NCBI GenBank assembly: GCA_016196885.1
Contig: JACPWU010000039.1
Location: 30,001 to 62,000 of the forward strand
Length of the DNA: 32,000 nucleotides
From: Chlamydiota bacterium
Lineage (GTDB): Bacteria > Auribacterota > JACPWU01
Direction of reading: 5' to 3'
A program made the position numbers and the translations under genes. Positions 2 to 16,467 of the stretch are shown in pieces. The notes below the pieces were generated by a model. It ran no database searches. It saw only the letters and a program-made list of their open reading frames with translations, and was not told where the DNA came from. Position 1 is the stretch's first letter. The number at the start of each line of letters is the position of its first letter.

Positions 2-400
2 TTGAGAATAGTGGCCGAGATTTCTTCTTTGGCTCGGGAGGGAACAGGGGAACTTCTTCAAGAGGTGCTGGAACTTTATCGGGAGATGATGGGAGATGAA
101 CTGAAGGACTTTAACCAGCTTCTCACACTTTTAAAAACTTTTATTCGCATGGTCAATTTCCATCATGATTTTGAGACGCTGGTCAATGAGGGAAGAATTG
201 GGAAGAGGAATAATGAGACCTATTATGTGAGTTTGAGAGATTTGAGCAAGGTCAAGGAGATGGTTCAAGCGGAGTTTGAAGCGGGTGTTCCTTTGCGGGT
301 TGCGGCGCGACGAGCGATTCAGAGACGCTATTATAACCGCTTTTTAAGGGAGGATCGGTCTTTGATTGAGAAACTCATGCGTCGTCATGGCCTTCTCGAT
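2..400 (+). other. Lid/C-terminal helical part of an additional B-type AAA+ module whose core lies upstream of the window
   Basis: NETYYVSLRDLSKVKEMV...RRAIQRRYYNRF aligns by eye with the post-B1 lid ESYYTSLRDLSRMVRVMV...PKAIHRIYGLRM and with the post-B2 lid GYFISPRDIAKIIDVL. Confidence 0.6.
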
Positions 401-3400
401 GTAGACGAGAAGCTGGATTATGACTATGTCTTTGAAGGGCTTGAGCCAGAATCTCGCAATATCAAGGTTTATGAACAGAAAAAAGGGCGCATGGTTCAAC
501 GAAAGGGGGAAGTCGAAGAAGTTCGCACGGGAGAGAAGGTGCCTCTTTTAAATATTCAGTTGGAGAAAAATTTTGAAGGTCTTCGCCGCGACGAAGTTTT
601 AAATGCCAGCACGCGGCGGGGTTTGGCCCAGCTTCTTTCAGCCCTTGGGGGACCTGCCAAGAAATTTTTTAATCCCGTTTTTCTTTTTGGGATTACCTCC
701 GGGGGAAAAAGCACTTTGGCCCGAATCGCAGCGAAGATGCTGGGTGTAGGATATACCCGCATTCAGATTACGGCCCAGACGGATGAGTTTGAACTGTTTG
801 GAAGTTTCCAGCCTTATGAAATTAACATTTCTCCTCAGGATGCGTACGAACGCATTCAGGATGGACTCGCTCGTGGAGAATTTATCAAATTGGAAGAGGC
901 TTTGAGTCGACTAGAGTTTGGTGAAGAGGGAAAACTTTTTCAAAAACTTTTGGAGGGTCACGAGGACTGGGCCGAAAAGTATCATGGGCTTCAAGGTGAG
1001 GCCAGGTTGAAATATCAAAGAGAAATTTTGGAAATATATCTTAAAACAAAAGTGGGTGATTATTTAAGACGGACCGCGGCCATTCTTTATAAAACACAAG
1101 AGGGGCATGTGGTGAGTGCTGAAGAACTTGCTTTTGTAGAGGTGTTTAAGAGCTTGGCCATGCTCATGGACCAGAAAATGGGGCTGCGTTTTGTGGATGG
1201 ACGTTTTCTCACGGCTTATCGCAAGGGGGATTTAATCTTGCTGGATGAAGCCAATCTTGCCAATGAGGAAATGGTCGGGGTTCTCTATCAGATGCTGACA
1301 CGCGGCTATTTGGAATATCAGGGGAGGCTGATTGAATTGGCTCCTGGCGCCACGCCCCGTGTCGTTGCCACGGGGAATCCCTCAACGGATTCGGGACGCA
1401 ATCGGATGAGCGAGGCCTTTATGAATCGCTTTGAAATTATTCAGGTCGAGGATATGAACCCGGATGAAATGGCGGATCTTATTGTGGATCAATTGGCTGT
1501 AGACGGAGTGAATCTGGAACAGGATTTAGGAATGACGCGTGAGCAATTGATTCAATTTGCTGAGATTCAGCGCTCTCTCAACAATCTTCTCAGAACAGGA
1601 AAATTTTCCAATATGGGACAAGAGGAAAATTATGTTTTTACCCTTCGAAATCTTTTGAGAATTGTGGGGGATGTGAGAGAAAGAAAGGCTGCGGGACATC
1701 CCGTCAATATTGAGACCTGGATTCAGGAGGCCTATCTCGAGTATCAGGGGATTTTGGTGAGGCGTGATTGTTATACACCGGATCCGAGCGGTAACTCAGA
1801 CTATCGGTCTTTGCGCAATGTGTTTAGCGTGGCGCTGGGATATAAAAGAGAGGGGAAAACGCCAGAAGAAACACTGGATACGCTTATTCAGGAACGATTC
1901 GGCAAAATTGAGGGAGCCGATGATGCTGTTCAACATCGCATGGAGCTCGATGGTCTGAGCTTGGAAGCGGGTCATTCCGAGGAGGAGGTTTTGGTGGATG
2001 AATTGATTGAGGTTGAATCCACAAAATTTATTGAGACCTATATTGCGAAAGGGATTCGCCAGAGACAGGCTGTTTTATTTGTGGGCCAGTCTGGAGGTGG
2101 AAAAACGGATGTGATTGCGAATGTGGCTAGAAAAACAAATCGAAAATACGTCAGTGTTTCTTTGGGGGATGCCACTTTAGAAAGTTTGATTGGGACGGTG
2201 GAATATGACCGCAGGGAAAAGCGGTTTAAGTATCGGCCGGGCATTTTGGTGATGGCCATGGAAGAGGGATCTATTTTGGCTCTGGAAGAATTGAATATGG
2301 CCAAATCCGGGATTTTGGAAATTTTGAATGAATATTTTGATGAAGGGACATTCACCAATCCTTTCACTTTAGAAAAAGTGAAAGTTCATCCTGATTTTAG
2401 ACTTTTTGCAACCATGAATCCCATGGAAGGAACCCGCGGGGCCAATGAAGGAAGGACTTTGCTTTCTCCTGCTCTTCGAAGCCGATTTCGAGAAGTTTGG
2501 GTGCCTCATGAGAAGACGGATGATGAGATACGTACAATTTTAAAAGGGAAGTTTGAGCAACTCCTCCCTGTAGAAAAAAGTTCTACCTCCGAGGTGACCA
2601 GACTGCCCGAAAATCCCATTATTCCCCTCCCTCGATGGGAGGGGTTAGGGGAGGGTGAACTCAAATCCACCCCCTCCCTAACCCTCCCCACAAGGGGGAG
2701 AGAACTTTTAGGACAGCCTGTACCTGGAGGTGACGAAGATCCCCTTATCGAAAATATGTTGTCTTTTTATCGCCGCTATCAAGGGGATTTTGAGGAAATT
2801 CGAGATGAAAGCTATTACACCAGCTTGAGGGATTTAAGTCGGATGGTGCGGGTGATGGTGCTTCATGTAAAAGAACATGGAATGACGCTAGAAGAAGCTT
2901 TGCCCAAGGCGATTCATCGGATTTATGGCTTGAGAATGACCACGCCCCAGGCAAAGGAGAAATATCAAAAGATTTTATCCGATTTAAATATTCCACAATA
3001 TCAGCCCGGGCAAATTATTTTTGAAAGAGATGAAAACTTCCTTCATGTTTATGAGGTTTCAACAAAATCTCTTAACTCCCCCAACCCTTTAAATGGAGTA
3101 ACTCCCCAGGCCCCTCTTAACCTAAGAGGGGGTATTGATGGAGTAACTCCCCAGGCCCCTCTTAACCTAAGAGGGGGTATTGATGAAAGAGGGGAGGACG
3201 ACAAAACGCTGATTGCGCAACTTCGCATTGATGATCTCCAGAGTCAAACAGCATCCCAAGTTCGTTCAGAGTTAATCTCTCAGGGGGTTGGAGAAGACGA
3301 ACTCGATTCAAGAGCGTCCGAGGCCTTAGACACTCTCCTCTCATCTTCCCAGCTTGTTCAAGACCCCAAAACGGTAGCTGAACTTTCTCATCTTTTAGAA

Positions 3401-9400: not shown

Positions 9401-12400
9401 GATGCAAGCGAAAGTATGGACGATATGCAAAGGATGGATTCTGCGGTGGGTTATAACGCCCTGAAAGGCGCTTTTATCATGATGGAAACTTTAGAAAATT
9501 TGGGGATCGATTTTAATGTCAGGTGGATTGGAGATACGACAGGTTTATACAAGCGATTTAAAAATCAACCTAATCCGGAGGGAGAAAATATTCCCAACAG
9601 TTTTTCGACGCGTATGGATCGGGAAAAAATCATTCAATCCATGTACGAGTCCATCGGTCAAAAAGGGGGGACAAATGATGCGCTTGCGATTCAAGAAACG
9701 ATCAAAGATATTGAGCGCTATGGGGCTGAAAATCACTATGTAACCGTATTTACGGATGGTATGGGGACGATTCCTCAGGTTCAGGAAATTCTGCAAAAAG
9801 TTCGTGAAAACAAAGGGCGGATCGGGCGATCCAAAACTGAATTTATTGGGGTTGGACTCGGAAATGCAACCAAAATTGTCCCTGATGTTTATGGAAAAGA
9901 ATATTCCATCCATTTGAAGGATCATGAGCTTAGGGAATTACCGGTTCGAATCAAGCGCCTCATGGAGCGTTTGATCAATCGGATTTATCGAGAGGATACC
10001 ACTCGAAAAGCGCCTAGCCCTCTTTCTGGGACTTCCATGAGCGGGGCCAGTGTGGATGGGATGATTGGGCAAGGAAATGCGATTGTTGAGTTCCTAGAGG
10101 AACTCAACAGTTCAAGGTTCAAAAGTTCAAAAGATCAAAGGTTAGAACAGGAGTTTGCGGATGTATTAGACGGACATGAGGTCTATGTCTTTGACGCTCT
10201 CATCAAGGGGCCGCATGATTTTGTGCTGGGGTATCGGGATAAAGTGAATAAAAGGCTTTATGTTTCACGAGAAGTCCTTCACCGCTTGGAAGGCCGTCCG
10301 AATGTTTTACGGGAATATCTCTTTCACGAAGCCCATTGTGACCCGGATGTCGAGGGAAGCCATTATCAAACCATCGCTGAGCAGCAAAGGCTCTATCCCG
10401 AAAATTACATAGGCATGGGATATTTTAGAAATGAAGAGGGGGTTCTTCTTTATTATGCAAGAAATCCCTATCTCAATGAAATGCTTGGATTTTTATGGGA
10501 AATGATACATCCCCTTGAAAAATGGTTTCCGTTTCTGGCTCGTCTTTCTCCTAAGATTGCGAAAGGGGTGTTGGGAAAAGTTTTACGTTCAGTGATCGAA
10601 GAAGAGTTAAAGAATGAAGCACCCCGAAAATATCCTTATAAATACAGAAGCTTTTCTCAAGCCAAGTCTTCTTATGAGAAGGAGCATGGAAAGATTCCTG
10701 AAATATGTCTGAATAGGATGGAGATGCTGCCTTCTTACAGGAAGAGGATTAAACAATTTGGTTTTGAAGATATGTTGCTTTTGCTACCGAACTCTCCTGC
10801 CCGCATGCCCGAGCTTCTAAGACTACTTGAGTGTTTGGAAAAAGTATTTGGAGAGGATGTCCCTCTTTTCTGGCCAGATTTTATGCGTTTGGTTAGTGGA
10901 TCGAGGGATCGAGAGGGCTTGGACTGGAATCCAGGTCTTTTGGAAGGGCTCTTGGATTCTTTTGATGTGCGTTTACCAAGCTATTATTCTCGACAGGAAA
11001 GAAAGAGATGGTTTCAAGAAGCCGTCGATCTGAACTTACGGGCAGGAGCATACGCCTTCGATTTTTGGGAGAGAGCCATGAGGTTCAATGTACTTGGGCT
11101 TGCACTGGATCAACGACAACTCCAAGAAGTCGGAAATATTGTGTTATCTGCAAATGAGAAGTTAGGATCTATGAGAGACAAAGATTTTTTCTCTATCGTT
11201 GGAAGTTGGGGGGAAGCGTTCAAGAGTATAGATCAATTAAGGGAGGCCGTTCAGAAAATCGTTGCAGTGATGAGTCCCTCATACATTCACGATTCGGAAG
11301 CTGCGGACATTGCCTCTATATCGAGAGAATCCAGTGGTTTTGCTGTTGTCTGGAAACTCTGGAGTCGGGTTCAAGAGAGTGAAAGAGAAGTTTTAATTTC
11401 TATGGTTACCAAGATTTGGAGACTTAATATTCAGACCCCTTCTACTAAAGCAAGAATTCTAGAGCATTTCCAATCCATCGCCGATGAAAGCGGCCCGGAC
11501 GCGATTGTCGGGGATTTGGAGGCGTTGTTGGAACGCCTTAAGAAGCCTGTTGGGGATGATGAAGGGGATGTGTATGAATTAGCGACTCCATTGACAGTTC
11601 TAACTCAAGGAGGTTATTTGCCATCAACTTCTTTTTCTCAGGGAGGCTACATTGCCCAAGGGACAGAAGCCAAGGCAGAGTTTTTAGAGAATTTAGCTGC
11701 GGGGAGATATGAGTTTTGCCGAAGGAAGGATTTTGAGGAGGGTTTTAAAAAGATTTTAGAGGGTTATGAGGTTTATGTCGTTCCTGCAATTATCAAGGGA
11801 CCGGATGATTTTTTCCTGGGAACGAAGGACTTCACTCAAAGGAGAATTTATGTGACAGCAGAAGTTTTGGGAATTTTATGCCAATGGTATCGTGATCCGA
11901 AAGACTGTCGTCGTTTGATCAGCGAATATTTCTGGCATGAGGTTCATGAAGAACCTTCACCTGAGCGGCATGAGAGTCTCATTCAGGAGCAGCAAGTCAA
12001 ATTTAAGCAGAATTACACGGGTAAGGGCTACAAGAAAGGGTCTGGTTACTTGATAGATCCTCAGAAGCAAGGCAAGGTTGCCAAAGGAGAATTGGGAGAC
12101 GCCCTGTGTCATTTGATCACCAAAACCCTTCAAGGGGGGCAAACGCCTAAAGATTTCGTGAAGGATGCCTTTAAAGCCTATCGTGCGATTTATGGGAAGG
12201 AAGTCGATTTGGATCAGTGGGATAATGTTGAGGGTGCGTTGATTCCTAACCTGGATCTTTGGGTGGAAATTTTTGGCGTGAAAAGGCTTTTGGAATATAA
12301 CGCCCTTTTCAACAAAGGTTTCCTTTCCGAAGATTATTTTGAGATGTTAACGGGTCTTTCTTTTTCCTATGCATCGGGGGACCCTTTTAAAATGCTGGAA

Positions 12401-15115
12401 TGCATGGAAATGTTCGCTGACGGTGATGACAATTTAAGATCCACTGTGTATTTTTTCGACGAAAGCCTGGAATCAGTGGTTTCTTTGATCCCCAATGGTC
12501 CATCATTTAAAGCTCTCATTTTCAAGCTTATTGAACTCTCTGATGCGATCTTTCGTTCGCCCTGGCATAGTACTGGCCAAAACCGAAGGGCGTATTGGGA
12601 ATTTTTCCTTGAGATGATGAATGTTTTAAAAAAGCGAAATGTCCTCCAGGATGATGGCATGCTTATGGAATTTCTGGATGCGGTGATTGCGGTGATTCAT
12701 CAGGAAGAAGGGGCCGGGCTTCTGGCTTTTGATTTTTTTGGAGAAGGGGTGTGCGAAAGGGAGTCAGAGAATTTTCTGAGAGATGGGAGGCAATTCACTG
12801 AATTTTTCCAGCCTTGGAGCGCTGCTTTAAGTCAGTTGCCTCGAGGGGTCGAAGGGGACGATGAGTCCGAACGTGTTACGGGTGCCGTTTGGAATTTGGG
12901 TCCTGGGCCACTTTTGGAGCGAGGTCCGGTGGCCCTTGGAAGATTATGTTCTGCGACTGGAAAACTGGGTGATGAAAAATACGAGCGATTCCATGCCTTC
13001 TCAACCATTGAGGGTTTGTGGAGGGATGGAATGGATGAATATTTGGGTGAGGTGGTTGAATATTTTGAGTTACTGAAAGACGAATTGGAGGGGGATGTTG
13101 GAGTGCAATGCGCCATGCTTTTTCAGAAGTTAAGTCACTCAGCGGCTAGATTTGGAAAAGGGAGAGAGGTTTTTGAATCGCTTGCTCGTTTGCGAGAGCG
13201 TGAGAGTCGTCAGAGTTGTGTAGATTTTGTCATCGATCTTGTGCAGAGTCGGGAGACTTTTGGCCATCGAATTGCGTTGTATCTTCCCGGGCTCGCCCGT
13301 TTATGGCAATCGGAAGGTTTTGCACTGTTTCAGGAGGAAGAAGCAGAGAAAGAAAGAGGACATTATTTCGATGCAGTTGTCTGGCCTGTGATTCAAAAAA
13401 TGGGATCTAAGAGGTTGTTGCAATATTACTGGGAAGATTTGGTTGAGGCAAGTTGTGCCTCATTCCCGCGAACAGGCTTTTCGGAGAGCTCTGAGGCCTT
13501 GATTGATTTGAACGGGATTCTAGGTCGTGAATTGGACGAACATTGGCCCATTTTTATGAAGATGGCAAGGGCGGGAAACGCCTCTATTGAGGAATTTATC
13601 GTTGCCATGGCTGATGGCTTTGAGCTCTGGAGAAAGAGGAAAAAAGATTTGCTTGAGGTGCTTAAAAAACTTTATTCTCGTAGGGGTTCGCAACAAGCTG
13701 CTGTGATCGACCCTGTTATCGAGATTGTGAGCTGGGCAAAGGGTCATCCCTCTGATGCAAATCATGTGTTGAATCACCTAAAAGATATCGCCGACGAAAG
13801 CGGCCCCGACGCGATTGTAGGGGATTTAGAGGTGTTTTTGGCGAGGTTTCAGAATCCGGGTGAGGAGGATGATGCCGACCCCTATGCTTTTGCTGGACTG
13901 TCATCAGGTTCAATGGGACCGCTTTTGCTTTCTCCTCTTGGGACATTGTCTTCTGGAATTGCTGCCCCTACCGGTACTTTGGAAGGTGCTTTGACTTTGT
14001 GGATTCATTCTGAATTTAAAGGAGATGCGGAGCTTCGGGCTTATATTGGGCGAGGTTCTGCGGCCCAGGTTCTTGAAGCATTGGGATCGGCTCTTGAAAT
14101 ATATTTTGGAAGATTGAGCATCCATCTGGATCGACAGAACGAGATTTTAGGTCGATTGGCCAGTTTAGTGGCTCAAGCGCATCAAGGTGGGAAAGAATCG
14201 GACCCTCTCGCTCAACTGATTGAAGAATTTTTGGGGATGAAGGCGGCTGAACGGGGTCGCCTCGAAAGTCAGATCAGTTCTCGTTTTAGCGAGACAGGGA
14301 GTGTGACATGGTCTTTGGAACAAGACAGTTGGACTTTTAGAGAAGGGGATGAAAATCTTTCGTGGACAGATCAGGACACGGAATTTGTAAATCAGCTCAA
14401 TGAATCAAACACAGACCTTCGCGAGCTTCACTTTGTAGGACGTGAAGGTTTTAGAAATGCTCTGGGCCAATTGGCCATCAGAAGGAGGGTGATAGAAACG
14501 GATGTGTCTTTGATACAGGGGGTAGAAGCAACACTTTCTGAGGATAAAAGTCTGCAATACATCATTATTGATATAGACCTTTTAGTAGACCAGGACGGTC
14601 TTGAGCTTCGTCAAATTCTTCAAAAAATTCCAGAAGGGGTTCGTGTCATTATTTTAGGATCTGAAAATTCATCGGATCAGCGCAAAATCCTTCAAACCCG
14701 ATGGGGGATTGAGACAAATTCAAAACTTCAAGTGATTCAAGTTCCTCATCAAGAAAATAGAGGCCTAGCGGCCCTTCAGCTAATGTCAGGTGCTGTTCAA
14801 CCTTCCCAGATTCGTTTTCTAGGATGGACCGAAAACCAAAAAGAATACGGGATTGAGGCCTTGAGTCAGCGGGGAATTTCTGTTGTTCTTGGCAATAAGT
14901 CCGTGACCTTAGCTCAAATGCTTTGTGCGGCTGACACGCCAGAAAAATATCGAGCGCTGATGGAAAAACTTGAGATTTCCAAGGACGAAATTAATCTGAT
15001 GATGGCTACAATAGAGGAGGGGCATCAGGTTCTTTCACCTCCGGGCATGCGGCGTCTTTTGAATAGCCTTGATGACCTTAGGCAGTCCGAGCAAGAACGT
15101 TTGAGATCGATGTAA
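2..15115 (+). CDS. Giant multi-AAA+ (MoxR/AAA_5, dynein/midasin-like) ATPase fused to an HExxH metallopeptidase-like domain, a VWA/MIDAS domain and a ~1,700-aa C-terminal extension; 5'-truncated by the window edge
   Basis: Uninterrupted ORF from the window edge to TAA at 15113-15115 (5,037 codons, no start in the window). It has six Walker A/Walker B pairs, HESMH at 8252-8266 and MIDAS DASES at 9401-9415. Overlapping and antisense track ORFs are short and look like shadows. Confidence 0.92.
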   Translation: MRIVAEISSLAREGTGELLQEVLELYREMMGDELKDFNQLLTLLKTFIRMVNFHHDFETLVNEGRIGKRNNETYYVSLRDLSKVKEMVQAEFEAGVPLRVAARRAIQRRYYNRFLREDRSLIEKLMRRHGLLDVDEKLDYDYVFEGLEPESRNIKVYEQKKGRMVQRKGEVEEVRTGEKVPLLNIQLEKNFEGLRRDEVLNASTRRGLAQLLSALGGPAKKFFNPVFLFGITSGGKSTLARIAAKMLGVGYTRIQITAQTDEFELFGSFQPYEINISPQDAYERIQDGLARGEFIKLEEALSRLEFGEEGKLFQKLLEGHEDWAEKYHGLQGEARLKYQREILEIYLKTKVGDYLRRTAAILYKTQEGHVVSAEELAFVEVFKSLAMLMDQKMGLRFVDGRFLTAYRKGDLILLDEANLANEEMVGVLYQMLTRGYLEYQGRLIELAPGATPRVVATGNPSTDSGRNRMSEAFMNRFEIIQVEDMNPDEMADLIVDQLAVDGVNLEQDLGMTREQLIQFAEIQRSLNNLLRTGKFSNMGQEENYVFTLRNLLRIVGDVRERKAAGHPVNIETWIQEAYLEYQGILVRRDCYTPDPSGNSDYRSLRNVFSVALGYKREGKTPEETLDTLIQERFGKIEGADDAVQHRMELDGLSLEAGHSEEEVLVDELIEVESTKFIETYIAKGIRQRQAVLFVGQSGGGKTDVIANVARKTNRKYVSVSLGDATLESLIGTVEYDRREKRFKYRPGILVMAMEEGSILALEELNMAKSGILEILNEYFDEGTFTNPFTLEKVKVHPDFRLFATMNPMEGTRGANEGRTLLSPALRSRFREVWVPHEKTDDEIRTILKGKFEQLLPVEKSSTSEVTRLPENPIIPLPRWEGLGEGELKSTPSLTLPTRGRELLGQPVPGGDEDPLIENMLSFYRRYQGDFEEIRDESYYTSLRDLSRMVRVMVLHVKEHGMTLEEALPKAIHRIYGLRMTTPQAKEKYQKILSDLNIPQYQPGQIIFERDENFLHVYEVSTKSLNSPNPLNGVTPQAPLNLRGGIDGVTPQAPLNLRGGIDERGEDDKTLIAQLRIDDLQSQTASQVRSELISQGVGEDELDSRASEALDTLLSSSQLVQDPKTVAELSHLLEAFDVGEERHAKGRFNPVLFMGGTSGGKSSKVRYAALNLLGQGYTRIQFNERTDEIDLLGGYEPREVKMDFDEAYLVLTEAMKNGEWIKIKKALQVWKKGSLSSADDKAFEEEEARLGIVQANQEAMVFVQKLLQDAFKEGSNMDPELREQAHHKIINMAFLIKNGVLNVELEFKEGRFLKALRRGDVVLLDEMNLASEEIVAILYQFLLTGYLEYYDRGQGKIAKIFPGKGFKLAATANPDTYSGRNRLSEALMNRFEIHYIEDMAPSEMAEIVNRENGFEGERQTAVEKLSQFQSLLNQKMREGEFSGISSDPQGGYIFTLRNLKRIVKDERMLEEMGETSSFRELILREAFLEYSSVLGRSPENLAKLQALFKDSTEGFGIDVELPNFEFSKNADGVLSIGSIKLEEVRDEPVEEDLVEPLAAGPQTNRIRYQIAKGFLDRRRPMLVVGQSGVGKSDVIGDMARELKWKYRSVSLGNTSLEALVGTYTIDRNTKKLVYVPGILIQAMREGSILALEEINMASPALIEILNEFFDEETFTNPMTGEKESIHPRFRLFATMNPEQGLTGLNGGRNALSPSLRSRFNEVWFPENRSPEEMKAIIRQKMINRGVLEKMDFAVDEIYHVYDEYFKAVLSQKIGEDSNEGYFISPRDIAKIIDVLAVDLKNGIEPAKALQHAFERVLIYRLHSEKDRVYVQSQILKQTKKDPYTWEESETGSVVKCEGVTLGTISPEMLGDFILTDQSKTAVARILDALRTVPENAKRRFNPLMLIGDTSVGKSTMAELATRISAKPLTRIQMNQRTDESDLFGSFHPVEVTLDNTQAYEVVTEALQKKQILRIRQALEYLKISKKRITGSLGLEGDVNLDDSVLERYVQEILLKGFKEGDARSSQIFRDLAILLANGGTGIDLEFKKGLFLQAMRRGEAVLLDELNLASEDALALLYQLLTLGYIEFQGERIYPAEGFQLIVSLNPSLGYTGRNPLSEAFMDRFEIHHVREMKPEEMAFIIHQKYKLESHGISYDDVLKLAQMQTQIDHLSREGGFDFFNTDRSYRFALRNLERIAEDFIARVSLKLSENQTIPLPRGEGLGEGEVKSTPSLTLPARGRELFGKPDGGVREIFLEEAFTEYGTLLDQTDRNIRKLVGRNISKDLFQGLEAAVIPSLWAFLIKGKHIDPNGRLLEFESLNKEGDIIISPKPGEETRVPKRVIYHLLKNSLGLFNQYFNWEGMGQYAEKFEHTQEILRLNGVEVLKKPSDTETLANLIEPQTQLRSTALTRTQVLKGFRDGKVVEIGDAQGQVKHAHRSRPVLIVGQSGGGKSDMVGDIARELHWKYTSVSLGAATVDSLIGSYELDEVTGVLRFREGVLIKAMREGYCIVLEEINMADAAVIEILNEYFDRGTFTLQERRVQVDIHLDFRLFASMNPIQGKMAQNSGRVGLSPALRSRFREVWLRSERTRGEEYRIMLGGIKKFVGQLLKAGTQDIGEVQESLGEVIENLREGVGTQGTHQMMRNNSGVLSSSTSAQAAVSVSTMKMATPVAGGGSGASGGVTQTEDLEGKKKTYVETFVVVSEGNVHLAESTPDERGQTHWAYAPATNTLYYPPDELATTPIDEMVGVGIHESMHRYGTRYLSIFEEFLEENKLAGMIFNILEDGRIENWARLRLTGTASYLRKLNDNKIFNKPIAEMFAWEVEIREGPLAGQKIKRSYSSMVQDFFLYLAKRGSDSDAKEKIAEILDIMGQESQELRQDLETLMNKGVFGGAKDEDMLQKKMRGVFSLVPIKTDGQGRILFDRDPTEEYKDELAEEQGVIIREEMMPIVYKWAVQDVQEGRGKGEGQGQPGKEGEGDGTPGTGKVKPGKPGGGGKPISPKDWKKIWESLNPEDKRALEKALKEGLGDKAADRTKSNSKDFQEAQKDATLSAPISERDRLLKQVGNRIHELTGYLREIILNATRPKWKQPERRGRFIARLLLNAIPRGAVGKMLFFAKREIPTKKNVTFTLVIDASESMDDMQRMDSAVGYNALKGAFIMMETLENLGIDFNVRWIGDTTGLYKRFKNQPNPEGENIPNSFSTRMDREKIIQSMYESIGQKGGTNDALAIQETIKDIERYGAENHYVTVFTDGMGTIPQVQEILQKVRENKGRIGRSKTEFIGVGLGNATKIVPDVYGKEYSIHLKDHELRELPVRIKRLMERLINRIYREDTTRKAPSPLSGTSMSGASVDGMIGQGNAIVEFLEELNSSRFKSSKDQRLEQEFADVLDGHEVYVFDALIKGPHDFVLGYRDKVNKRLYVSREVLHRLEGRPNVLREYLFHEAHCDPDVEGSHYQTIAEQQRLYPENYIGMGYFRNEEGVLLYYARNPYLNEMLGFLWEMIHPLEKWFPFLARLSPKIAKGVLGKVLRSVIEEELKNEAPRKYPYKYRSFSQAKSSYEKEHGKIPEICLNRMEMLPSYRKRIKQFGFEDMLLLLPNSPARMPELLRLLECLEKVFGEDVPLFWPDFMRLVSGSRDREGLDWNPGLLEGLLDSFDVRLPSYYSRQERKRWFQEAVDLNLRAGAYAFDFWERAMRFNVLGLALDQRQLQEVGNIVLSANEKLGSMRDKDFFSIVGSWGEAFKSIDQLREAVQKIVAVMSPSYIHDSEAADIASISRESSGFAVVWKLWSRVQESEREVLISMVTKIWRLNIQTPSTKARILEHFQSIADESGPDAIVGDLEALLERLKKPVGDDEGDVYELATPLTVLTQGGYLPSTSFSQGGYIAQGTEAKAEFLENLAAGRYEFCRRKDFEEGFKKILEGYEVYVVPAIIKGPDDFFLGTKDFTQRRIYVTAEVLGILCQWYRDPKDCRRLISEYFWHEVHEEPSPERHESLIQEQQVKFKQNYTGKGYKKGSGYLIDPQKQGKVAKGELGDALCHLITKTLQGGQTPKDFVKDAFKAYRAIYGKEVDLDQWDNVEGALIPNLDLWVEIFGVKRLLEYNALFNKGFLSEDYFEMLTGLSFSYASGDPFKMLECMEMFADGDDNLRSTVYFFDESLESVVSLIPNGPSFKALIFKLIELSDAIFRSPWHSTGQNRRAYWEFFLEMMNVLKKRNVLQDDGMLMEFLDAVIAVIHQEEGAGLLAFDFFGEGVCERESENFLRDGRQFTEFFQPWSAALSQLPRGVEGDDESERVTGAVWNLGPGPLLERGPVALGRLCSATGKLGDEKYERFHAFSTIEGLWRDGMDEYLGEVVEYFELLKDELEGDVGVQCAMLFQKLSHSAARFGKGREVFESLARLRERESRQSCVDFVIDLVQSRETFGHRIALYLPGLARLWQSEGFALFQEEEAEKERGHYFDAVVWPVIQKMGSKRLLQYYWEDLVEASCASFPRTGFSESSEALIDLNGILGRELDEHWPIFMKMARAGNASIEEFIVAMADGFELWRKRKKDLLEVLKKLYSRRGSQQAAVIDPVIEIVSWAKGHPSDANHVLNHLKDIADESGPDAIVGDLEVFLARFQNPGEEDDADPYAFAGLSSGSMGPLLLSPLGTLSSGIAAPTGTLEGALTLWIHSEFKGDAELRAYIGRGSAAQVLEALGSALEIYFGRLSIHLDRQNEILGRLASLVAQAHQGGKESDPLAQLIEEFLGMKAAERGRLESQISSRFSETGSVTWSLEQDSWTFREGDENLSWTDQDTEFVNQLNESNTDLRELHFVGREGFRNALGQLAIRRRVIETDVSLIQGVEATLSEDKSLQYIIIDIDLLVDQDGLELRQILQKIPEGVRVIILGSENSSDQRKILQTRWGIETNSKLQVIQVPHQENRGLAALQLMSGAVQPSQIRFLGWTENQKEYGIEALSQRGISVVLGNKSVTLAQMLCAADTPEKYRALMEKLEISKDEINLMMATIEEGHQVLSPPGMRRLLNSLDDLRQSEQERLRSM
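614..1765 (+). other. AAA+ module A1 (AAA_5/MoxR-like, with large insert)
   Basis: Walker A GITSGGKST at 689-715 and Walker B LILLDE at 1232-1249. ATGNP is sensor-1-like, followed by GRNRMSEAFMNRF. An insert of roughly 130 aa, predicted helical, lies between FGSFQPYEI and FVDGRFLTAY. Lid motif is YVFTLRNLLRIV. Confidence 0.85.
2024..2940 (+). other. AAA+ module B1 (AAA_5/MoxR-like, compact) plus lid
   Basis: Walker A GQSGGGKT at 2084-2107 and Walker B variant ILALEE at 2273-2290. Also FATMNP, SPALRSRF and the lid motif YYTSLRDL. The lid is interrupted by the repeat element at 2621-2709. Confidence 0.85.
2621..2709 (+). repeat. G/C-tract palindromic repeat element, copy 1, inserted in-frame in the giant CDS
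   Basis: 89 nt, with 5 mismatches to 6638-6726. The flanks are non-homologous (B1 lid versus A3 lid). Internal hairpins are CCCCTCCC-tcgat-GGGAGGGG, a long G-arm/C-arm pair, and CTCCCC-acaa-GGGGGAG. It is translated as IPLPRWEGLGEGELKSTPSLTLPTRGREL. Confidence 0.9.
3095..3184 (+). repeat. Perfect 2 x 45-nt tandem duplication, in-frame in the giant CDS
   Basis: ggagtaactccccaggcccctcttaacctaagagggggtattgat occurs at 3095-3139 and again at 3140-3184, encoding GVTPQAPLNLRGGID twice. Each unit contains the hairpin CCCCTCTTA-acc-TAAGAGGGG. Confidence 0.95.
3371..4490 (+). other. AAA+ module A2
   Basis: Walker A GGTSGGKSS at 3461-3487 and Walker B VVLLDE at 3959-3976. Also ATANP, GRNRLSEALMNRF and the lid motif YIFTLRNLKRIV. 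The insert is homologous to the A1 insert (begins DFDEAYLVLTEAM). Confidence 0.85.
4690..5475 (+). other. AAA+ module B2 plus lid
   Basis: Walker A GQSGVGKS at 4751-4774 and Walker B variant ILALEE at 4940-4957. Also FATMNP, SPSLRSRF and the lid motif YFISPRDIAKII. Confidence 0.85.
5630..6800 (+). other. AAA+ module A3
   Basis: Walker A GDTSVGKST at 5717-5743 and Walker B AVLLDE at 6176-6193. Also SLNPS, GRNPLSEAFMDRF and the lid motif YRFALRNLERIA. The lid loop is interrupted by the repeat element at 6638-6726. Confidence 0.85.
6638..6726 (+). repeat. G/C-tract palindromic repeat element, copy 2, inserted in-frame in the giant CDS
   Basis: The offset from copy 1 is 4,017 nt, a multiple of 3, so the reading frame is the same. 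It is translated as IPLPRGEGLGEGEVKSTPSLTLPARGREL. Paralogous modules A1 and A2 have only a short loop at this position. Confidence 0.9.
7210..7765 (+). other. AAA+ module B3
   Basis: Walker A GQSGGGKS at 7331-7354 and Walker B variant CIVLEE at 7520-7537. Also FASMNP and SPALRSRFREVW. Confidence 0.85.
8070..8400 (+). other. HExxH metallopeptidase-like domain (resembles the DUF2201_N-type domain found N-terminal to VWA in MoxR partner proteins)
   Basis: HESMH is at 8252-8266, preceded by TNTLYYPPDEL...PIDEMVGVGI and followed about 25 aa later by NILEDGRIENW. From memory, this pattern matches the putative metallopeptidase domain that accompanies VWA-like domains next to MoxR ATPases. Confidence 0.55.
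8875..9000 (+). other. Low-complexity G/K/E/P-rich linker
   Basis: Translated sequence is EGRGKGEGQGQPGKEGEGDGTPGTGKVKPGKPGGGGKP. Confidence 0.8.
9371..9990 (+). other. von Willebrand factor A (VWA) domain with MIDAS motif
   Basis: TFTLVIDASESMDD carries DxSxS at 9401-9415. GGTND places Thr at 9671-9673 and VFTDG places Asp at 9755-9757. The beta-alpha alternation is typical of VWA. Confidence 0.85.
10073..10426 (+). other. C-terminal repeated domain, copy 1 (H-E-x-H-x8-H motif)
   Basis: GHEVYVFDALIKGPHDFVLGYRD...RLYVSREVL...EYLFHEAHCDPDVEGSH (motif at 10325-10363) aligns with copy 2. Confidence 0.6.
11660..12031 (+). other. C-terminal repeated domain, copy 2 (H-E-x-H-x7-H motif)
   Basis: GYEVYVVPAIIKGPDDFFLGTKD...RIYVTAEVL...EYFWHEVHEEPSPERH (motif at 11936-11971). 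Confidence 0.6.
14417..14749 (+). other. Possible divergent receiver (CheY-like)/flavodoxin-fold segment near the C-terminus
   Basis: YIIIDIDLLVDQDGLELRQILQKIPEGVRVIILGS resembles the beta3-alpha3-beta4 stretch of receiver domains. The upstream acidic pair and the beta5 Lys are not evident. Confidence 0.25.
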
Positions 15116-15119
15116 GCCA

Positions 15120-16406
15120 TTACCCTAAAACATGCCAAGGAACGGCAATGATTTTTTCACTCATTCGCACAATCTCATTCCCATTATAAATAAGAACGGC
15201 TGCTTGTGTTTCGGGGTATTCTTTCAGAAAAATTTGTAAATTTCTTGTATCGCTATACTGGGGGTTAGATGCGAGCTTGACCTCAAAGGCAATCAGATGA
15301 CGACCTTGCTCCAGAACAAAATCTACTTCTTTCCCATCCATAGTTCGCCAGTAAAACAGGCGAGGACGGGGCAGCAATAATTGGGATGTCACTTGAAGAT
15401 GTAAAAAAATTAAACTCTCAAACATAGCACCGATTTCTCTGGCTGCCTTTAAATCGTGAATGTCGCTGTAGCCGGCAAGATAAGCGCTGAGTGCGGGATC
15501 TATCCAATATATCTTGGGAGATTTCATCAAGCGCTTGGTCCGATTTCGGTGAAAGGCATTTACACGTGTGACGAGGCATGACGCCTCCAATAAATTGATA
15601 TAGCGATGAATGGTGGGCTGACTCATCGCGATGTCTCTGGCCAATGCAGATTGGTTCAATATATTTCCGGTCCTTAAGGCCAGGGCCTCCATCACGCGTC
15701 TAAAATCCGAGAGGGATTCAATTTGAGAAATTTGGCGTAAATCTCGTTCCAGATAAGTGGCGACATACCCTTCCCACCAGCGAACAATAGAATCTGGCCT
15801 CTTCAGGGTTAAAAGAGGAGGCATGAGGCCTTTGTGGATTTGTTCAATGGGGTCATGAGAGATATTGTTTTTGCCTTCATCAGGAAATTTTCCCCTGAAA
15901 ATATTTTTAATGAGTCCAGAGGGTATATGATTTTGGGTCTCACCCAGTGTCATGGGGTAGAGTGTAAAATAGACCGCTCGTCCCGCGAGCGTCTCACTCA
16001 CCTTTTCCATCAATAAGAGATTGGCTGAGCCTGAGAGAATAAAACGGTTTTTTCTCCCTCCCTCATCGACTTTTCTTTTGATGGCCAATAGGAGAGAAGG
16101 GACGCGTTGAACCTCGTCTAAAACCATATTTTCTTCACTAGATAGAAGCGCCATTGGATCTTTCTGAGCCTGGTTTAGTAGGTCATAATCATCAAAACTA
16201 AGGTAACGCCACTTAGAAAATGGCGCTTCTTTTTGCAAAAGGGTGCTCTTACCCACCTGGCGGGGTCCTGTGAGGATCACGACGGGATGATCTTTCACGG
16301 CGGTTTGTATCTCGGATGTTAGCCACCGGGGTTTGTAATATAATTCATGATCTGAATGAATATCATTCATACCTTGAATAGTATTACAAATGAGTCGATC
16401 GGTCAA
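15120..16406 (-). CDS. AAA_14/DUF4143-family ATPase (COG1373-like) with PD-(D/E)xK-like C-terminal motif
   Basis: 428-aa ORF with Walker A GPRQVGKST and Walker B MVLDEVQ. The C-terminal DGKEVDFVLE...IAFEVK is encoded at about 15276-15329. An alternative start at M13 (MNDIHSD, 16370) is possible. Confidence 0.85.
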   Translation of the reverse strand: MTDRLICNTIQGMNDIHSDHELYYKPRWLTSEIQTAVKDHPVVILTGPRQVGKSTLLQKEAPFSKWRYLSFDDYDLLNQAQKDPMALLSSEENMVLDEVQRVPSLLLAIKRKVDEGGRKNRFILSGSANLLLMEKVSETLAGRAVYFTLYPMTLGETQNHIPSGLIKNIFRGKFPDEGKNNISHDPIEQIHKGLMPPLLTLKRPDSIVRWWEGYVATYLERDLRQISQIESLSDFRRVMEALALRTGNILNQSALARDIAMSQPTIHRYINLLEASCLVTRVNAFHRNRTKRLMKSPKIYWIDPALSAYLAGYSDIHDLKAAREIGAMFESLIFLHLQVTSQLLLPRPRLFYWRTMDGKEVDFVLEQGRHLIAFEVKLASNPQYSDTRNLQIFLKEYPETQAAVLIYNGNEIVRMSEKIIAVPWHVLG

Positions 16407-16467
16407 GGTGTTAGGTTAGAAATTTGGTTAGAAATAGCCTTCTCTTCTAGAAGGTATTGTGTTTCTT

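What the first reader, a model, noticed from the sequence alone, without database searches (positions are those of the whole stretch)
2..15115. Midasin-like giant polypeptide: six or more concatenated MoxR/AAA_5 modules, an HExxH domain, a low-complexity linker and a MIDAS/VWA domain in one bacterial ORF
In one reading frame the sequence encodes, in order: (1) the lid of an earlier module; (2) six AAA+ modules, with Walker A at 689, 2084, 3461, 4751, 5717 and 7331; (3) an S/A/G-rich spacer; (4) an HExxH domain (8252-8266); (5) a G/K/E/P linker (about 8875-9000); (6) a VWA domain with a complete MIDAS signature (DASES 9401-9415, Thr 9671-9673, Asp 9755-9757); (7) about 1,700 more residues. In characterised bacterial systems the MoxR-type ATPase has a single AAA module and forms a homohexamer, and its VWA partner is a separate protein (RavA/ViaA, CbbQ/CbbO, NorQ/NorD, CoxD/CoxE). 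Concatenated AAA modules followed by a linker and a C-terminal MIDAS domain is the hallmark layout of eukaryotic midasin/Rea1. This ORF could therefore be a bacterial analogue or relative of midasin. It could also be a cis-fused MoxR-VWA remodelling or conflict machine. The gene is open at the left edge, so it is larger than shown. I cannot establish novelty without searches.
Basis: partly seen in the sequence, partly recalled or inferred. Interest (0 to 1): 0.9.

Follow-up and report, generated by a model that had tools for sequence, protein, structure and literature searches.

The report
Bacterial midasin-like six-module giant ATPase
A bacterial (probably Omnitrophota) protein of more than 5,000 residues carries six dynein/midasin-type ATPase modules, a small metalloprotease-like domain and a metal-dependent adhesion (VWA) domain on one chain, which suggests that the single-chain six-module ATPase architecture attributed to early eukaryotes also arose, repeatedly, in bacteria.

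Summary
Window 2-15115 (+) is one stop-free 5,037-codon ORF, open at the left. Every motif is at the stated coordinates.

The ATPase region is three tandem copies of a two-module unit. Module A is split by a 90-118 aa insert. Module B is compact. The best solved relatives are eukaryotic midasins (E 6e-83), far ahead of NorQ, CbbQ and CobS. A modules are colinear with midasin's insert-bearing AAA2 and AAA6. B modules align with AAA1, AAA3 and AAA5.

A family profile places the VWA with CobT (3e-35), midasin MIDAS (2.5e-23) and NorD (2e-12). All MIDAS residues are conserved. The HExxH domain models confidently (pLDDT 92) and resembles minigluzincins, though weakly.

Orthologs, almost all from Omnitrophota MAGs, have exactly six modules. 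Their ORFs exceed 7,300 aa while still open. Other bacteria encode the HExxH-VWA cassette as a separate gene next to one- or two-module AAA_5 genes, or fused to one or two A-B pairs.

It is therefore a cis-fused, triplicated AAA_5/CobT-like remodelling machine. It resembles midasin in architecture but is not its ortholog. I found no published description. Its substrate and function are unknown.

The parts
2..15115 (+). Giant ORF, 5,037 codons plus stop, 5'-truncated by the window edge
   Evidence: colinear with orthologs; 100% identical independent contig for 6646-17723
80..601 (+). Orphan lid-like / pre-ring helical domain (aa 27-200). It resembles the lids that follow B modules, but no ATPase module precedes it in orthologs
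   Evidence: Internal similarity: aa 27-110 to 900-975 (E 1e-5) and aa 65-246 to 1771-1922 (E 5e-11). No upstream Walker A or Walker-B half in P0004 or the genome loci
614..1981 (+). Module A1 (aa 205-660): Walker A GITSGGKS at aa 230, ~118-aa insert, Walker B LILLDE at aa 411, then its lid
   Evidence: AAA_5
2009..3001 (+). Module B1 (aa 670-1000): compact AAA_5 core (Walker A at aa 695, Walker B ILALEE) plus a dynein-type lid (Pfam DYN_lid, aa 913-959)
2603..2720 (+). In-frame palindromic repeat element, copy 1 (peptide IPLPRWEGLGEGELKSTPSLTLPTRGREL), inserted at the start of the B1 lid and absent from orthologs
   Evidence: comparison with the P0004 sequence
3093..3182 (+). Perfect 45-nt tandem duplication (GVTPQAPLNLRGGID x2) in the B1-A2 linker
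3389..4681 (+). Module A2 (aa 1130-1560): Walker A at aa 1154, Walker B VVLLDE at aa 1320. Colinear end-to-end with Mdn1 AAA2 (residues 468-718)
4694..5551 (+). Module B2 (aa 1565-1850): Walker A at aa 1584, Walker B ILALEE, plus lid
5654..6901 (+). Module A3 (aa 1885-2300): Walker A at aa 1906, Walker B AVLLDE at aa 2059, plus lid
6620..6737 (+). In-frame palindromic repeat element, copy 2, inside the A3 lid. The Logan contig ends here
7274..7921 (+). Module B3 (aa 2425-2640): Walker A at aa 2444, Walker B CIVLEE
7919..8071 (+). S/A/G-rich spacer (aa 2640-2690)
8069..8881 (+). HExxH domain (aa 2690-2960). H2751, E2752 and H2755, plus the conserved N..ED.R motif (aa 2780-2786). Minigluzincin-like core within a helical domain
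   Evidence: Conservation. AF2 pLDDT 92, pTM 0.89. Profile hits to MJ1213 and projannalysin. Foldseek top ten hits are selecase or jannalysin
8876..9001 (+). G/K/E/P low-complexity linker (aa 2959-3000), predicted disordered
8999..10006 (+). Helical pre-VWA segment plus VWA/MIDAS domain (aa 3000-3335). MIDAS residues D3134, S3136, S3138, T3224, D3252
10022..10441 (+). 'GPxDF' domain, copy 1 (aa 3341-3480). Undescribed domain with invariant E, HE, H and Y
   Evidence: no PDB or Pfam match
11618..12037 (+). 'GPxDF' domain, copy 2 (aa 3873-4012), 40% identical to copy 1
12038..15112 (+). C-terminal ~1,025 aa with no detectable relatives. It holds one internal repeat (aa 4546-4660, similar to aa 3775-3878) and no predicted TM segment

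Best explanation
What is shown. The ORF encodes part of a giant cytoplasmic protein. The visible part is 5,037 aa. About 6,500 aa or more is expected from ortholog P0004, and some orthologs exceed 7,300 aa while still open. The source is most likely an Omnitrophota bacterium.

Its conserved core is a covalently linked set of six AAA+ modules of the AAA_5 (MoxR/dynein-midasin) clade. The six are three tandem copies of a heterodimeric unit: module A, which carries a 90-118 aa insert between the Walker A and Walker B halves, and compact module B. An orphan lid-like domain precedes them.

The co-chaperone cassette that other bacteria encode as a separate neighbouring gene follows in cis. That cassette is a CobT/NorD-like protein made of an HExxH (minigluzincin-like) N-domain, a helical segment, a disordered charged linker and a MIDAS-type VWA domain. 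The protein is thus the product of gene fusion plus triplication of a two-gene AAA_5 + HExxH-VWA operon.

What is inferred, by analogy with NorQD, CbbQO, CobST and Rea1:
- The six modules close into one ring. All six keep Walker A, an acidic Walker B pair and the RF arginine.
- The VWA docks on the ring and captures an acidic residue of a client protein through its MIDAS ion.
- ATP-driven ring movements are transmitted to the tethered VWA and linker, pulling or twisting the client.
- The enlarged inserts of the A modules may gate VWA docking, as AAA2H2alpha does in Rea1.
- The conserved HExxH...E/D site either cleaves the captured client or binds a metal.
- The variable N- and C-terminal extensions (GPxDF domains and orphan helical regions) probably provide targeting or scaffolding.

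The client and the cellular process are unknown.
For: Module identity:
- AAA_5, E 1e-50 to 1e-63.
- Midasin is the best solved relative: E 6e-83 for the whole region, 4.7e-57 for A2 alone, 3.6e-57 for a B1 half. NorQ reaches 4e-9, and CbbQ and CobS 1e-5 to 1e-4.
- DYN_lid is above its Pfam cut-off on the B1 lid.

A-B x3 structure:
- Internal repeats.
- Walker A to Walker B distance is 153-181 aa in A modules and 63 aa in B modules.
- A2 aligns end-to-end with Mdn1 AAA2 (468-718) and AAA6 (1871-2102). With the odd modules only separate halves align.

Motif integrity in all six modules.

VWA:
- Family alignment conserves DxSxSM, GxTxDG and DG.
- Profile hits: CobT 3e-35, midasin MIDAS 2.5e-23, NorD 2e-12.
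- 39 of 44 family members hit Pfam CobT_C and 31 of 44 hit VWA.
- AF2 model pLDDT 84.5. Foldseek top hits are NorD VWA and the Rea1/MDN1 MIDAS domains, TM-score (target-normalised) 0.63-0.71.

HExxH domain:
- H, E, H and ED.R conserved at 90% or more.
- pLDDT 92.
- Sequence profile and Foldseek both point only to selecase and jannalysin.

Fusion origin:
- Stand-alone HExxH-VWA genes lie adjacent to AAA_5 genes (L006 coupled; L007 with a 2xAAA_5 protein).
- Architectures with 2, 4 and 6 modules exist.
- In the module tree the 2- and 4-module forms branch basal to the A and B clades.

Other:
- Exactly six modules in all orthologs with enough upstream sequence.
- Taxonomy: 9 of 13 related genome loci are Omnitrophota.
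- No TM segment in the visible part.
- Mechanistic template: NorQD (PMC13036017) and Rea1 (PMC11603028).
Against: - Ring closure was not modelled. The ring region is ~2,400 aa and the predictor's limit is 1,200.
- B modules carry EE instead of the canonical DE Walker B, so their hydrolytic competence is uncertain.
- The peptidase reading of the HExxH domain rests on weak scores: E 2e-4 to 5e-3 for the sequence profile and Foldseek E 0.06. The zinc-site geometry was not measured.
- No client gene is identifiable. The neighbours are housekeeping genes.
- The true N-terminus is missing.
- A VWA 'finger' or MIDAS loop that enters the pore was not identified.
- The source taxon is inferred only from orthologs at 36-48% identity.
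Confidence: 0.72

Rival explanations
1. The architecture is as in the best explanation, but the HExxH domain is not a peptidase. It is the conserved N-terminal client-binding or metal-handling domain of a CobT/NorD-type co-chaperone, and the machine is a metal-centre insertion or activation chaperone like CobST, NorQD, CbbQO and CoxDE. The HExxH...E/D site would hold or deliver a metal ion.
For: - The closest solved relative of the cassette is CobT (3e-35), followed by NorD.
- CobT_C is the commonest Pfam hit in the family (39 of 44 members).
- CobT's N-terminal region weakly aligns with the N.lED.Rve motif (9.6 bits, not significant on its own).
- NorD has the same layout of N-domain, linker and VWA, and it works by linker stretching rather than proteolysis.
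Against: - HExxH with an invariant second His and a conserved Glu is the catalytic signature of zincins.
- The only fold and profile matches are active metallopeptidases, selecase and jannalysin.
- No metalloenzyme client gene lies nearby.
Confidence: 0.3
2. The protein is part of a biological-conflict (anti-phage or predation) system, comparable to the MoxR-vWA ternary systems or to the Omnitrophota giant proteins implicated in predation. The variable N- and C-terminal regions would be the effector or sensor parts.
For: - The N- and C-terminal extensions diverge fast between orthologs (24-39% identity or none).
- GPxDF domains are shared with other multi-enzyme giant proteins.
- The two genes immediately downstream match the PADLOC candidate family PDC-S01 (E 1.6e-116).
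- Omnitrophota giant genes have been linked to predation (bioRxiv 10.1101/2023.11.21.568195).
Against: - The giant protein has only weak generic P-loop hits in PADLOC.
- The remaining neighbours are housekeeping genes.
- No recognisable effector domain (nuclease, protease cascade, TIR and so on) was found.
- There is no TM or secretion signal in the visible part.
- The conserved part is the chaperone core, not an effector.
Confidence: 0.15
3. The gene is a eukaryotic midasin acquired by horizontal transfer and then remodelled in Omnitrophota.
For: Midasin is by far the best solved relative of the AAA region. The only word-index hits to the A3-B3 pair in 5.8 billion proteins were eukaryotic midasin fragments.
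Against: - In the module tree, Omnitrophota modules form their own A and B clades, with bacterial 2- and 4-module forms basal to them. They are not nested in Rea1 modules.
- True midasin fragments sit at distance 0.12-0.29 from Rea1 modules. The nearest bacterial modules (P0049, P0072, P0039) sit at 0.45-0.59, and no module of the window protein is among the five nearest neighbours of any Rea1 module.
- The VWA cassette is closer to bacterial CobT than to midasin.
- The cassette exists as separate bacterial genes.
- There is no midasin linker domain.
Confidence: 0.03
4. The long ORF is an assembly chimera or a decayed pseudogene stitched across the repeat elements.
For: Two copies of a 118-nt repeat lie inside the ORF, a third lies downstream, and a short-read contig breaks at one of them.
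Against: - There is a single colinear alignment to P0004 over 3,423 columns spanning both repeats.
- The same module order is found in about 10 orthologs.
- An independent contig is 100% identical over 11,078 bp.
- There are no stops in 5,037 codons (P about 1e-137).
- Catalytic motifs are conserved in all modules.
Confidence: 0.01

Closest known systems
Eukaryotic midasin (Rea1 / Mdn1 / MDN1)
   Same: - Six AAA_5-type modules on one chain.
- Alternation of compact modules and modules with an enlarged insert between the Walker A and Walker B halves.
- A dynein/midasin-type lid.
- A flexible low-complexity linker ahead of a complete MIDAS VWA domain.
- Best sequence match of the AAA region among all solved structures (E 6e-83).
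- The family VWA profile hits the midasin MIDAS domain at 2.5e-23, with a fold match at TM-score 0.63-0.71.
   Different: - No ~1,700-aa stem/middle/top linker and no ~600-aa D/E-rich region (layout from PMC11603028).
- An HExxH domain sits between the ring and the VWA.
- The VWA is followed by ~1,700 more residues.
- The chain starts with an insert-bearing module after an orphan lid, not with a compact AAA1.
- All six modules keep nucleotide-site motifs. The printed Rea1 Walker-B halves read IEDID in AAA1 and ILDNAN in AAA6, and PMC11603028 states that only AAA2-AAA5 contain all the catalytic motifs.
- Modules are not one-to-one orthologs.
- Bacteria have no pre-60S or UBL clients.
CobS-CobT (aerobic cobaltochelatase AAA_5 + VWA subunits)
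   Same: CobT is the closest solved relative of the linker-plus-VWA cassette (E 3e-35). CobT_C is the commonest Pfam hit in the family. The ATPase partner, CobS, is also of the AAA_5 type.
   Different: - CobS is a single-module protein and scores only 1e-4 against the modules here.
- CobT lacks the HExxH.
- The subunits are separate polypeptides.
- No cobN or cobalamin genes lie nearby.
NorQ-NorD and CbbQ-CbbO (MoxR-type ATPase plus VWA activases)
   Same: An AAA_5 ring works through a partner that has an N-domain, a linker and a MIDAS VWA. NorD VWA is the top Foldseek match and a profile hit at 2e-12. The mechanistic template comes from PMC13036017.
   Different: - These are homohexamers of one-module subunits with a separate partner.
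- They are encoded next to their client enzymes.
- They have no HExxH.
- Their modules are much less similar than midasin's (NorQ 4e-9, CbbQ 1e-5).
Minigluzincins (M. jannaschii selecase MJ1213, projannalysin)
   Same: These are the only sequence-profile and fold matches of the HExxH domain. The aligned region covers the beta-strand plus the HExxH helix.
   Different: - They are ~110-aa stand-alone archaeal peptidases. Here the core is embedded in a 270-aa helical domain.
- The matches are weak (E 2e-4 to 0.06).
- The downstream conserved motif is N..ED.R.
MoxR-vWA ternary conflict systems (Kaur et al. 2020, PMC7159879)
   Same: They use a MoxR-clade ATPase with a vWA co-chaperone, flexible charged linkers and variable appended domains.
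   Different: - They are separate genes with a defining third component (VMAP, iSTAND, FtsH or beta-propeller) and effector domains. None of these was found here.
- Their ATPase has one module.
Omnitrophota giant proteins (bioRxiv 10.1101/2023.11.21.568195; 10.64898/2026.06.07.730766)
   Same: Same phylum. Very long ORFs, rapidly diverging regions, and domains shared with other giants (the GPxDF domain).
   Different: Those reports do not describe a six-module AAA_5 + MIDAS architecture. AAA_5 appears only in one figure legend, and midasin, MoxR and VWA are not mentioned.

Membership tests
Midasin (Rea1/Mdn1) | Six tandem AAA_5-type modules in one polypeptide | tested here: met
   Six Walker A/B modules. 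AAA_5 at E 1e-50 to 1e-63. Six in every ortholog with enough upstream sequence
Midasin (Rea1/Mdn1) | [quoted passage not shown] | tested here: met
   Walker A to Walker B distance is 153-181 aa in A modules and 63 aa in B modules. A2 is colinear with Mdn1 AAA2 and AAA6. Mdn1 even modules align as split halves. The AAA2H2alpha role is described in PMC11603028. Whether the insert is homologous or convergent is not resolved
Midasin (Rea1/Mdn1) | ~1,700-aa linker (stem, middle, top) between ring and acidic region | tested here: not met
   Only a ~50-aa S/A/G spacer separates B3 from the HExxH domain. Midasin alignments cover only the AAA region and the MIDAS domain. No Pfam hit lies beyond the ring
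Midasin (Rea1/Mdn1) | Long D/E-rich flexible region preceding the MIDAS domain | tested here: inconclusive
   A 42-aa G/K/E/P disordered linker is present. It is short and not acidic. Relatives such as P0015 have D/E-rich versions
Midasin (Rea1/Mdn1) | MIDAS-type VWA domain with DxSxS...T...D | tested here: met
   D3134, S3136, S3138, T3224 and D3252 lie on conserved columns. Profile versus midasin MIDAS: 2.5e-23. Foldseek versus the Rea1/MDN1 MIDAS domains: TM-score 0.63-0.71
Midasin (Rea1/Mdn1) | MIDAS domain at the C-terminus | tested here: not met
   About 1,700 residues follow the VWA
Midasin (Rea1/Mdn1) | Module-by-module orthology with AAA1-AAA6 | tested here: not met
   In an NJ tree of Walker-B halves, the window's modules form their own A and B clades. 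True midasin fragments (P0002, P0003) pair with Rea1 modules at distance 0.12-0.29. The tree has no support values
Midasin (Rea1/Mdn1) | Removes UBL-domain assembly factors (Rsa4, Ytm1) from pre-60S particles | not testable with these tools
   This is a eukaryote-specific process and no equivalent is known in bacteria
MoxR/AAA_5 ATPase + VWA co-chaperone systems (NorQD, CbbQO, CobST, RavA-ViaA) | AAA_5/MoxR-clade ATPase with Walker A/B, sensor 1 and arginine finger | tested here: met
MoxR/AAA_5 ATPase + VWA co-chaperone systems (NorQD, CbbQO, CobST, RavA-ViaA) | Partner with N-domain, linker and MIDAS VWA | tested here: met
   AF2 model: HExxH domain, disordered linker, VWA. Profile hits to CobT and NorD. 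NorD layout from PMC13036017
MoxR/AAA_5 ATPase + VWA co-chaperone systems (NorQD, CbbQO, CobST, RavA-ViaA) | One-module ATPase forming a homohexamer, with the partner as a separate polypeptide | tested here: not met
   Six modules and the partner are on one chain here. Relatives do have separate genes
MoxR/AAA_5 ATPase + VWA co-chaperone systems (NorQD, CbbQO, CobST, RavA-ViaA) | Encoded next to the client enzyme (NOR, RuBisCO, CobN and so on) | tested here: not met
   Neighbours are two DUF4143 ATPases, SpoU, Era, UPF0047, Mrp, GH57 and others
Gluzincin / minigluzincin metallopeptidases | HExxH on an active-site helix preceded by an edge beta-strand | tested here: met
   HExxH conserved at 90% or more. 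The model has strands at residues 33-43 and then helix 53-69 carrying the HExxH. The alignment to selecase covers the strand and the helix
Gluzincin / minigluzincin metallopeptidases | Third metal ligand (Glu) on a downstream helix | tested here: inconclusive
   E2783 and invariant D2784 lie on helix 84-105, 28-29 residues after the second His.
Gluzincin / minigluzincin metallopeptidases | Overall fold similarity to known members | tested here: inconclusive
   The top ten Foldseek hits are all selecase or jannalysin (prob 0.90-1.00), but E is 0.06-1 and the target-normalised TM-score is about 0.5. The profile E is 2e-4 to 5e-3
Gluzincin / minigluzincin metallopeptidases | Peptidase activity | not testable with these tools
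   Needs biochemistry
   No hit for the window protein at E <= 0.01. The family is absent from the 25 most-matched families listed for the 44 members at E <= 1
Known anti-phage defence systems (PADLOC-DB) | Specific match of the giant protein to a defence-system model | tested here: not met
   Only weak generic P-loop hits, none better than 1.2e-8 with zero significant stretches. The two neighbouring genes do match the candidate family PDC-S01

The most novel reading that the evidence does not exclude
The bacterial family uncovered here consists of separate or fused pairs of an insert-bearing and a compact AAA_5 module, working with a CobT-like HExxH-linker-MIDAS partner. In this reading, the family is the prokaryotic stock from which the eukaryotic midasin ring (and so, indirectly, the dynein ring) descended. 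The odd/even alternation of midasin modules would then be inherited from a bacterial two-module ancestor rather than invented after a single MoxR gene was hexaplicated in early eukaryotes. The single-chain six-module ATPase would also have evolved several times independently: in Omnitrophota, in the P0021, P0049 and P0072 lineages, and in eukaryotes.
Probability: 0.3. Interest if true: 0.85.

Novelty: new variant of a known kind. Interest (0 to 1): 0.72.

Why it matters
Single-chain six-module AAA+ ATPases are textbook features of two eukaryotic giants, dynein and midasin. The published scenario is that a one-module bacterial MoxR gave rise to the six-module protein early in eukaryotic evolution (PMC3495828).

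This window shows a bacterial protein family with the same design logic: six AAA_5 modules in an alternating pattern, a flexible linker and a MIDAS domain, all in cis. Living relatives represent every intermediate step:
- separate genes;
- one fused A-B pair;
- two pairs;
- three pairs.

That makes the origin of concatenated AAA+ rings testable with real sequences. It also offers a prokaryotic model for how a tethered MIDAS domain is driven by its own ring.

The family adds an unexpected conserved HExxH domain to the MoxR-VWA theme. It also gives a concrete functional handle on one of the enigmatic giant genes of Omnitrophota.

Tried and rejected
1. Whole-ORF homolog search.
2. Recovering the N-terminus. 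Scans of GTDB genomes and JGI metagenomes with aa 1-400 found nothing. The upstream regions of orthologs are too divergent for pattern scans. P0004's contig is filled by the gene and cut at both ends. The N-terminus therefore remains unknown.
3. Single-sequence Pfam, NCBIfam and PDB searches of the HExxH-VWA region gave nothing. Only the family profile worked.
4. The first HExxH-only alignment (A3) mis-aligned the query's end onto VWA columns. I discarded it and rebuilt it as A4.
5. Alignment A1 was too diverse for the genome scan. I replaced it with A2.
6. A seventh module upstream: rejected.
7. A conserved C-terminal domain shared with other giants that end in '...AA': no significant similarity.
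8. The GPxDF domain as a zincin related to the HExxH domain: HHalign probability under 1%, with no PDB or Pfam hits.
9. Relatives of the C-terminal ~1,000 aa: none.
11. Rfam and tRNA scans of the window were empty.
12. Garbarino & Gibbons 2002 is not in the held library.
Full report
**Observation**

Window 2-15115 (+) is one uninterrupted reading frame of 5,037 codons that runs off the left edge. From the base composition of the region, the probability of no stop codon is about 1e-137. The other five frames never exceed 130 codons.

- Walker A at aa 230, 695, 1154, 1584, 1906 and 2444.
- HExxH at aa 2751.
- DASES at aa 3134.

Seven G....GK[ST] matches are seen, against 0.18 expected from shuffles. 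Pfam AAA_5 matches several stretches at E 8.5e-50 and 1.7e-63. Single-sequence Pfam, NCBIfam and PDB searches found nothing in the C-terminal 2,400 residues, so the HExxH and VWA claims needed family-level evidence.

**Is the ORF real and correctly assembled?**

Residues 1-3345 align in a single colinear HSP with the ortholog P0004 (46% identity over 3,423 columns). About ten further orthologs have the same order of parts. An independent Logan assembly contig is 100.000% identical to window 6646-17723, with no gap.

That contig ends inside a 118-nt palindromic repeat. The repeat occurs twice in-frame inside the ORF (2603-2720 and 6620-6737, 88% identical) and once, partially, in an intergenic spacer (18840-18898). 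Orthologs lack the ~40-45 residues encoded by these insertions. The repeats explain why short-read assemblies fragment the gene, but they do not make the window chimeric.

**Anatomy of the ATPase region**

Internal comparison shows three tandem copies of a two-module unit, not six equivalent modules.

- **A modules** (aa ~205-660, 1130-1560, 1885-2300) have a canonical Walker A and a DE Walker B, separated by 153-181 residues.
- **B modules** (aa ~670-1000, 1565-1850, 2425-2640) have them 63 residues apart and carry EE in place of DE.
- All six keep the ...RF arginine. The sensor-1 Asn pattern was found in five. The regex missed A3, whose sequence reads LIVSLNP.

The first ~200 residues resemble the lids that follow B modules. 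However, P0004 has ~1,500 non-AAA residues upstream, and eight genome loci have 700-1,070 such residues, with no further Walker A or Walker-B half. Six is therefore the conserved module number, and the N-terminal piece is an orphan lid-like domain.

**Relation of the modules to known ATPases**

Among all solved structures the best matches are eukaryotic midasins. The E-values are 6e-83 for the whole region, 4.7e-57 for A2 alone and 3.6e-57 for half of B1. NorQ reaches 4e-9, and CbbQ and CobS reach 1e-5 to 1e-4. The B1 lid passes Pfam's cut-off for the dynein lid family.

A2 aligns end-to-end, through its insert, with Mdn1 AAA2 (468-718, 51 bits) and with AAA6. With AAA1, AAA3 and AAA5 only separate halves align. 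Conversely, B modules align continuously with AAA1, AAA3 and AAA5, and only with the Walker-B halves of AAA2, AAA4 and AAA6. The alternation of compact and insert-bearing modules is therefore shared with midasin. In midasin, the AAA2 helix-2 insert sits in the pore and gates MIDAS docking (PMC11603028).

A neighbour-joining tree of Walker-B halves (103 columns, no support values) shows four things:
- Each of the six positions is an orthologous clade across Omnitrophota. Positions 1, 3 and 5 form one group and positions 2, 4 and 6 form another.
- The 2- and 4-module relatives branch basal to each group.
- The six-module proteins P0021, P0049 and P0072 arose independently.
- Rea1 modules do not pair one-to-one with the window's modules.

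The two word-index hits P0002 and P0003 turned out to be genuine eukaryotic midasin fragments.

**The HExxH-linker-VWA cassette**

An exhaustive HMMER search with aa 2680-3480 found 186 relatives. Mapping window segments onto the best 150 of these and the three proteins from the earlier word-index searches (152 sequences in all) gave a graded series:
- stand-alone ~600-aa HExxH-VWA proteins, which are the majority;
- the same cassette fused behind one A-B pair;
- fused behind two pairs (P0014);
- fused behind three pairs (the window protein, P0004, P0005, P0006, P0008);
- fused behind six modules in distant lineages.

Stand-alone cassette genes lie next to AAA_5 genes. One is translationally coupled to an 893-aa AAA_5 protein. 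Another lies next to a 1,101-aa protein with two AAA_5 domains and a midasin-type lid.

A 44-sequence alignment conserves HExxH, a downstream N..ED.R motif, and the full MIDAS set DxSxSM, GxTxDG and DG. Its profile hits CobT (3e-35), the midasin MIDAS domain (2.5e-23 for Mdn1, 1e-22 for Rea1), NorD (2e-12), integrin I-domains (~1e-4) and, over the HExxH part, MJ1213 (2e-4). Of the 44 members, 39 match Pfam CobT_C and 31 match VWA.

The AlphaFold model of aa 2690-3345 is confident (pLDDT 84.5), and only the G/K/E/P linker is disordered. Foldseek ranks NorD VWA and the Rea1/MDN1 MIDAS domains first, with target-normalised TM-scores of 0.63-0.71.

The HExxH domain alone models at pLDDT 92 and pTM 0.89. 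Its top ten fold matches are all M. jannaschii selecase or jannalysin minigluzincins (prob 0.90-1.00, but E 0.06-1). Scattered faint hits to other zincins follow. This agrees with the profile result. The domain is zincin-like, but the evidence is weak.

**The rest of the protein**

After the VWA come two copies of a ~135-aa 'GPxDF' domain, with invariant E, HE, H and Y residues. This domain recurs two to four times in other giant proteins that have no AAA modules, and twice at the N-terminus of P0004. It has no Pfam or PDB match and no significant profile similarity to the HExxH domain.

The last ~1,000 residues have no detectable relatives. No transmembrane segment is predicted in the visible 5,037 residues. 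The regions outside the core diverge quickly between orthologs.

**Organism and context**

Thirteen related loci were found in species-representative genomes. Nine are Omnitrophota, counting Ca. Taenariivivens. Three are unnamed. The most distant is a two-module form from Elusimicrobiota. Ortholog ORFs reach 7,200-7,350 codons while still open at one or both ends.

The window's other genes are housekeeping: SpoU, Era, UPF0047, Mrp, DUF4912, GH57, PAP2, AstA, CheW, a porin and a phosphate-binding protein. The exception is two DUF4143 ATPases immediately downstream, which match the PADLOC candidate family PDC-S01. The giant protein itself matches no defence model.

**Interpretation**

Shown: the protein is a cis-fusion and triplication of a bacterial two-gene system, namely an AAA_5 ATPase with paired modules plus a CobT/NorD-like HExxH-linker-MIDAS partner. 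Its architecture converges on, or is distantly related to, midasin.

Inferred from NorQD (PMC13036017) and Rea1 (PMC11603028):
- The six modules form one ring.
- The tethered VWA docks on it and holds a client through the MIDAS ion.
- ATP-driven movements stretch or twist the linker and the client.
- The A-module inserts may gate docking.
- The HExxH site cleaves the client or handles a metal.

The client is unknown.

**Novelty**

The held literature attributes the six-tandem-AAA protein to early eukaryotes (PMC3495828). Reviews of MoxR-vWA systems list only one-module bacterial ATPases (PMC7159879). The Omnitrophota giant-gene papers do not mention midasin, MoxR or VWA. Searches for bacterial midasin-like proteins found nothing relevant. 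I could not read Iyer et al. 2004 or Garbarino & Gibbons 2002, so an earlier passing mention cannot be excluded.

I rate this a new variant of a known kind (the AAA_5 + VWA chaperone), with real evolutionary interest.

Noticed in passing
window 2603-2720, 6620-6737, 18840-18898: A ~118-nt palindromic repeat (core ATTCCCCTCCCTCGAGGGGAGGGGTTAGGGGAGGGTG). It is inserted twice in-frame in the giant ORF, where it encodes IPLPR[WG]EGLGEGE.KSTPSLTLP.RGREL in two lid regions. A partial third copy lies in the SpoU-Era spacer. Orthologs lack the insertions. From my own knowledge this is reminiscent of Rickettsia palindromic elements inside genes; that comparison was not tested here. A short-read contig breaks at copy 2.
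   Followed up: partly
window 3093-3182: A perfect 45-nt tandem duplication (GVTPQAPLNLRGGID x2) with its own hairpin (CCCCTCTTAACCTAAGAGGGG), in the linker between B1 and A2. It is either very recent or an assembly artefact.
   Followed up: no
window 20821-20888, 23637-23704, 28792-28859, 31566-31633: A family of ~68-nt intergenic hairpin elements (AGTCGTGAG..GGTGAGT / ACTCACCCCTCACGACT) placed just after four + strand genes. They look like REP-type or terminator elements.
   Followed up: no
window 10022-10441 and 11618-12037; also P0016, P0019, P0022, P0023, P0103: An undescribed ~135-aa 'GPxDF' domain (G.I.QG ... GP.DF.LG ... EYL.HE..C ... H..I..QQ ... NY). It occurs in 37 copies across 23 proteins, many of them giant multi-enzyme proteins without AAA modules. 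It has no Pfam or PDB match. The invariant HE and H suggest a metal site.
   Followed up: partly
window 15120-16406 (-) and 16468-17643 (-): Two tandem AAA_14/DUF4143 ATPases, convergent with the giant gene, match the PADLOC phage-defence candidate family PDC-S01 (E 1.6e-116 and 3.5e-67).
   Followed up: partly
window aa 758, 1647, 2507 of the ORF (nt ~2273, 4940, 7520): All three B modules, here and in orthologs, carry Walker B hhhhEE instead of hhhhDE, while A modules keep DE. This is a systematic difference between the two module types, with an unknown effect on hydrolysis.
   Followed up: partly
window 17909-18074: A 69-nt inverted repeat (91% complementary, 28-nt loop) in the 480-nt spacer upstream of the SpoU methylase gene. 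There is no Rfam match.
   Followed up: no
window 26459-26488 / 27772-27801 and 27722-27807: A 30-nt, 97%-complementary inverted repeat flanks the AstA-like gene (26632-27672), and a further hairpin lies just downstream.
   Followed up: no
window 25311-25443: A/T-rich AAATCCA-type short repeats form a 54-nt inverted repeat that runs from the 3' end of the GH57 gene into the 3' end of the convergent PAP2 gene.
   Followed up: no
L002 3634-11051; L003 3046-8589: P0002 and P0003, the only word-index hits to the A3-B3 pair, are eukaryotic midasin fragments. Their modules sit at distance 0.12-0.29 from Rea1 AAA3-6, and the genes are split into several calls, as expected for introns, on ENA metagenome contigs.
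   Followed up: partly
P0021 (4,471 aa), P0013 and P0015, P0049: Distant relatives show other solutions. P0021 has three near-identical two-module units separated by TPR-like repeats, with an N-terminal hydrophobic anchor. P0013 and P0015 have one A-B pair with several TM segments after the VWA. P0049 (7,557 aa) has about 12 hydrophobic segments, coiled coils and HEAT-like repeats ahead of six modules.
   Followed up: partly
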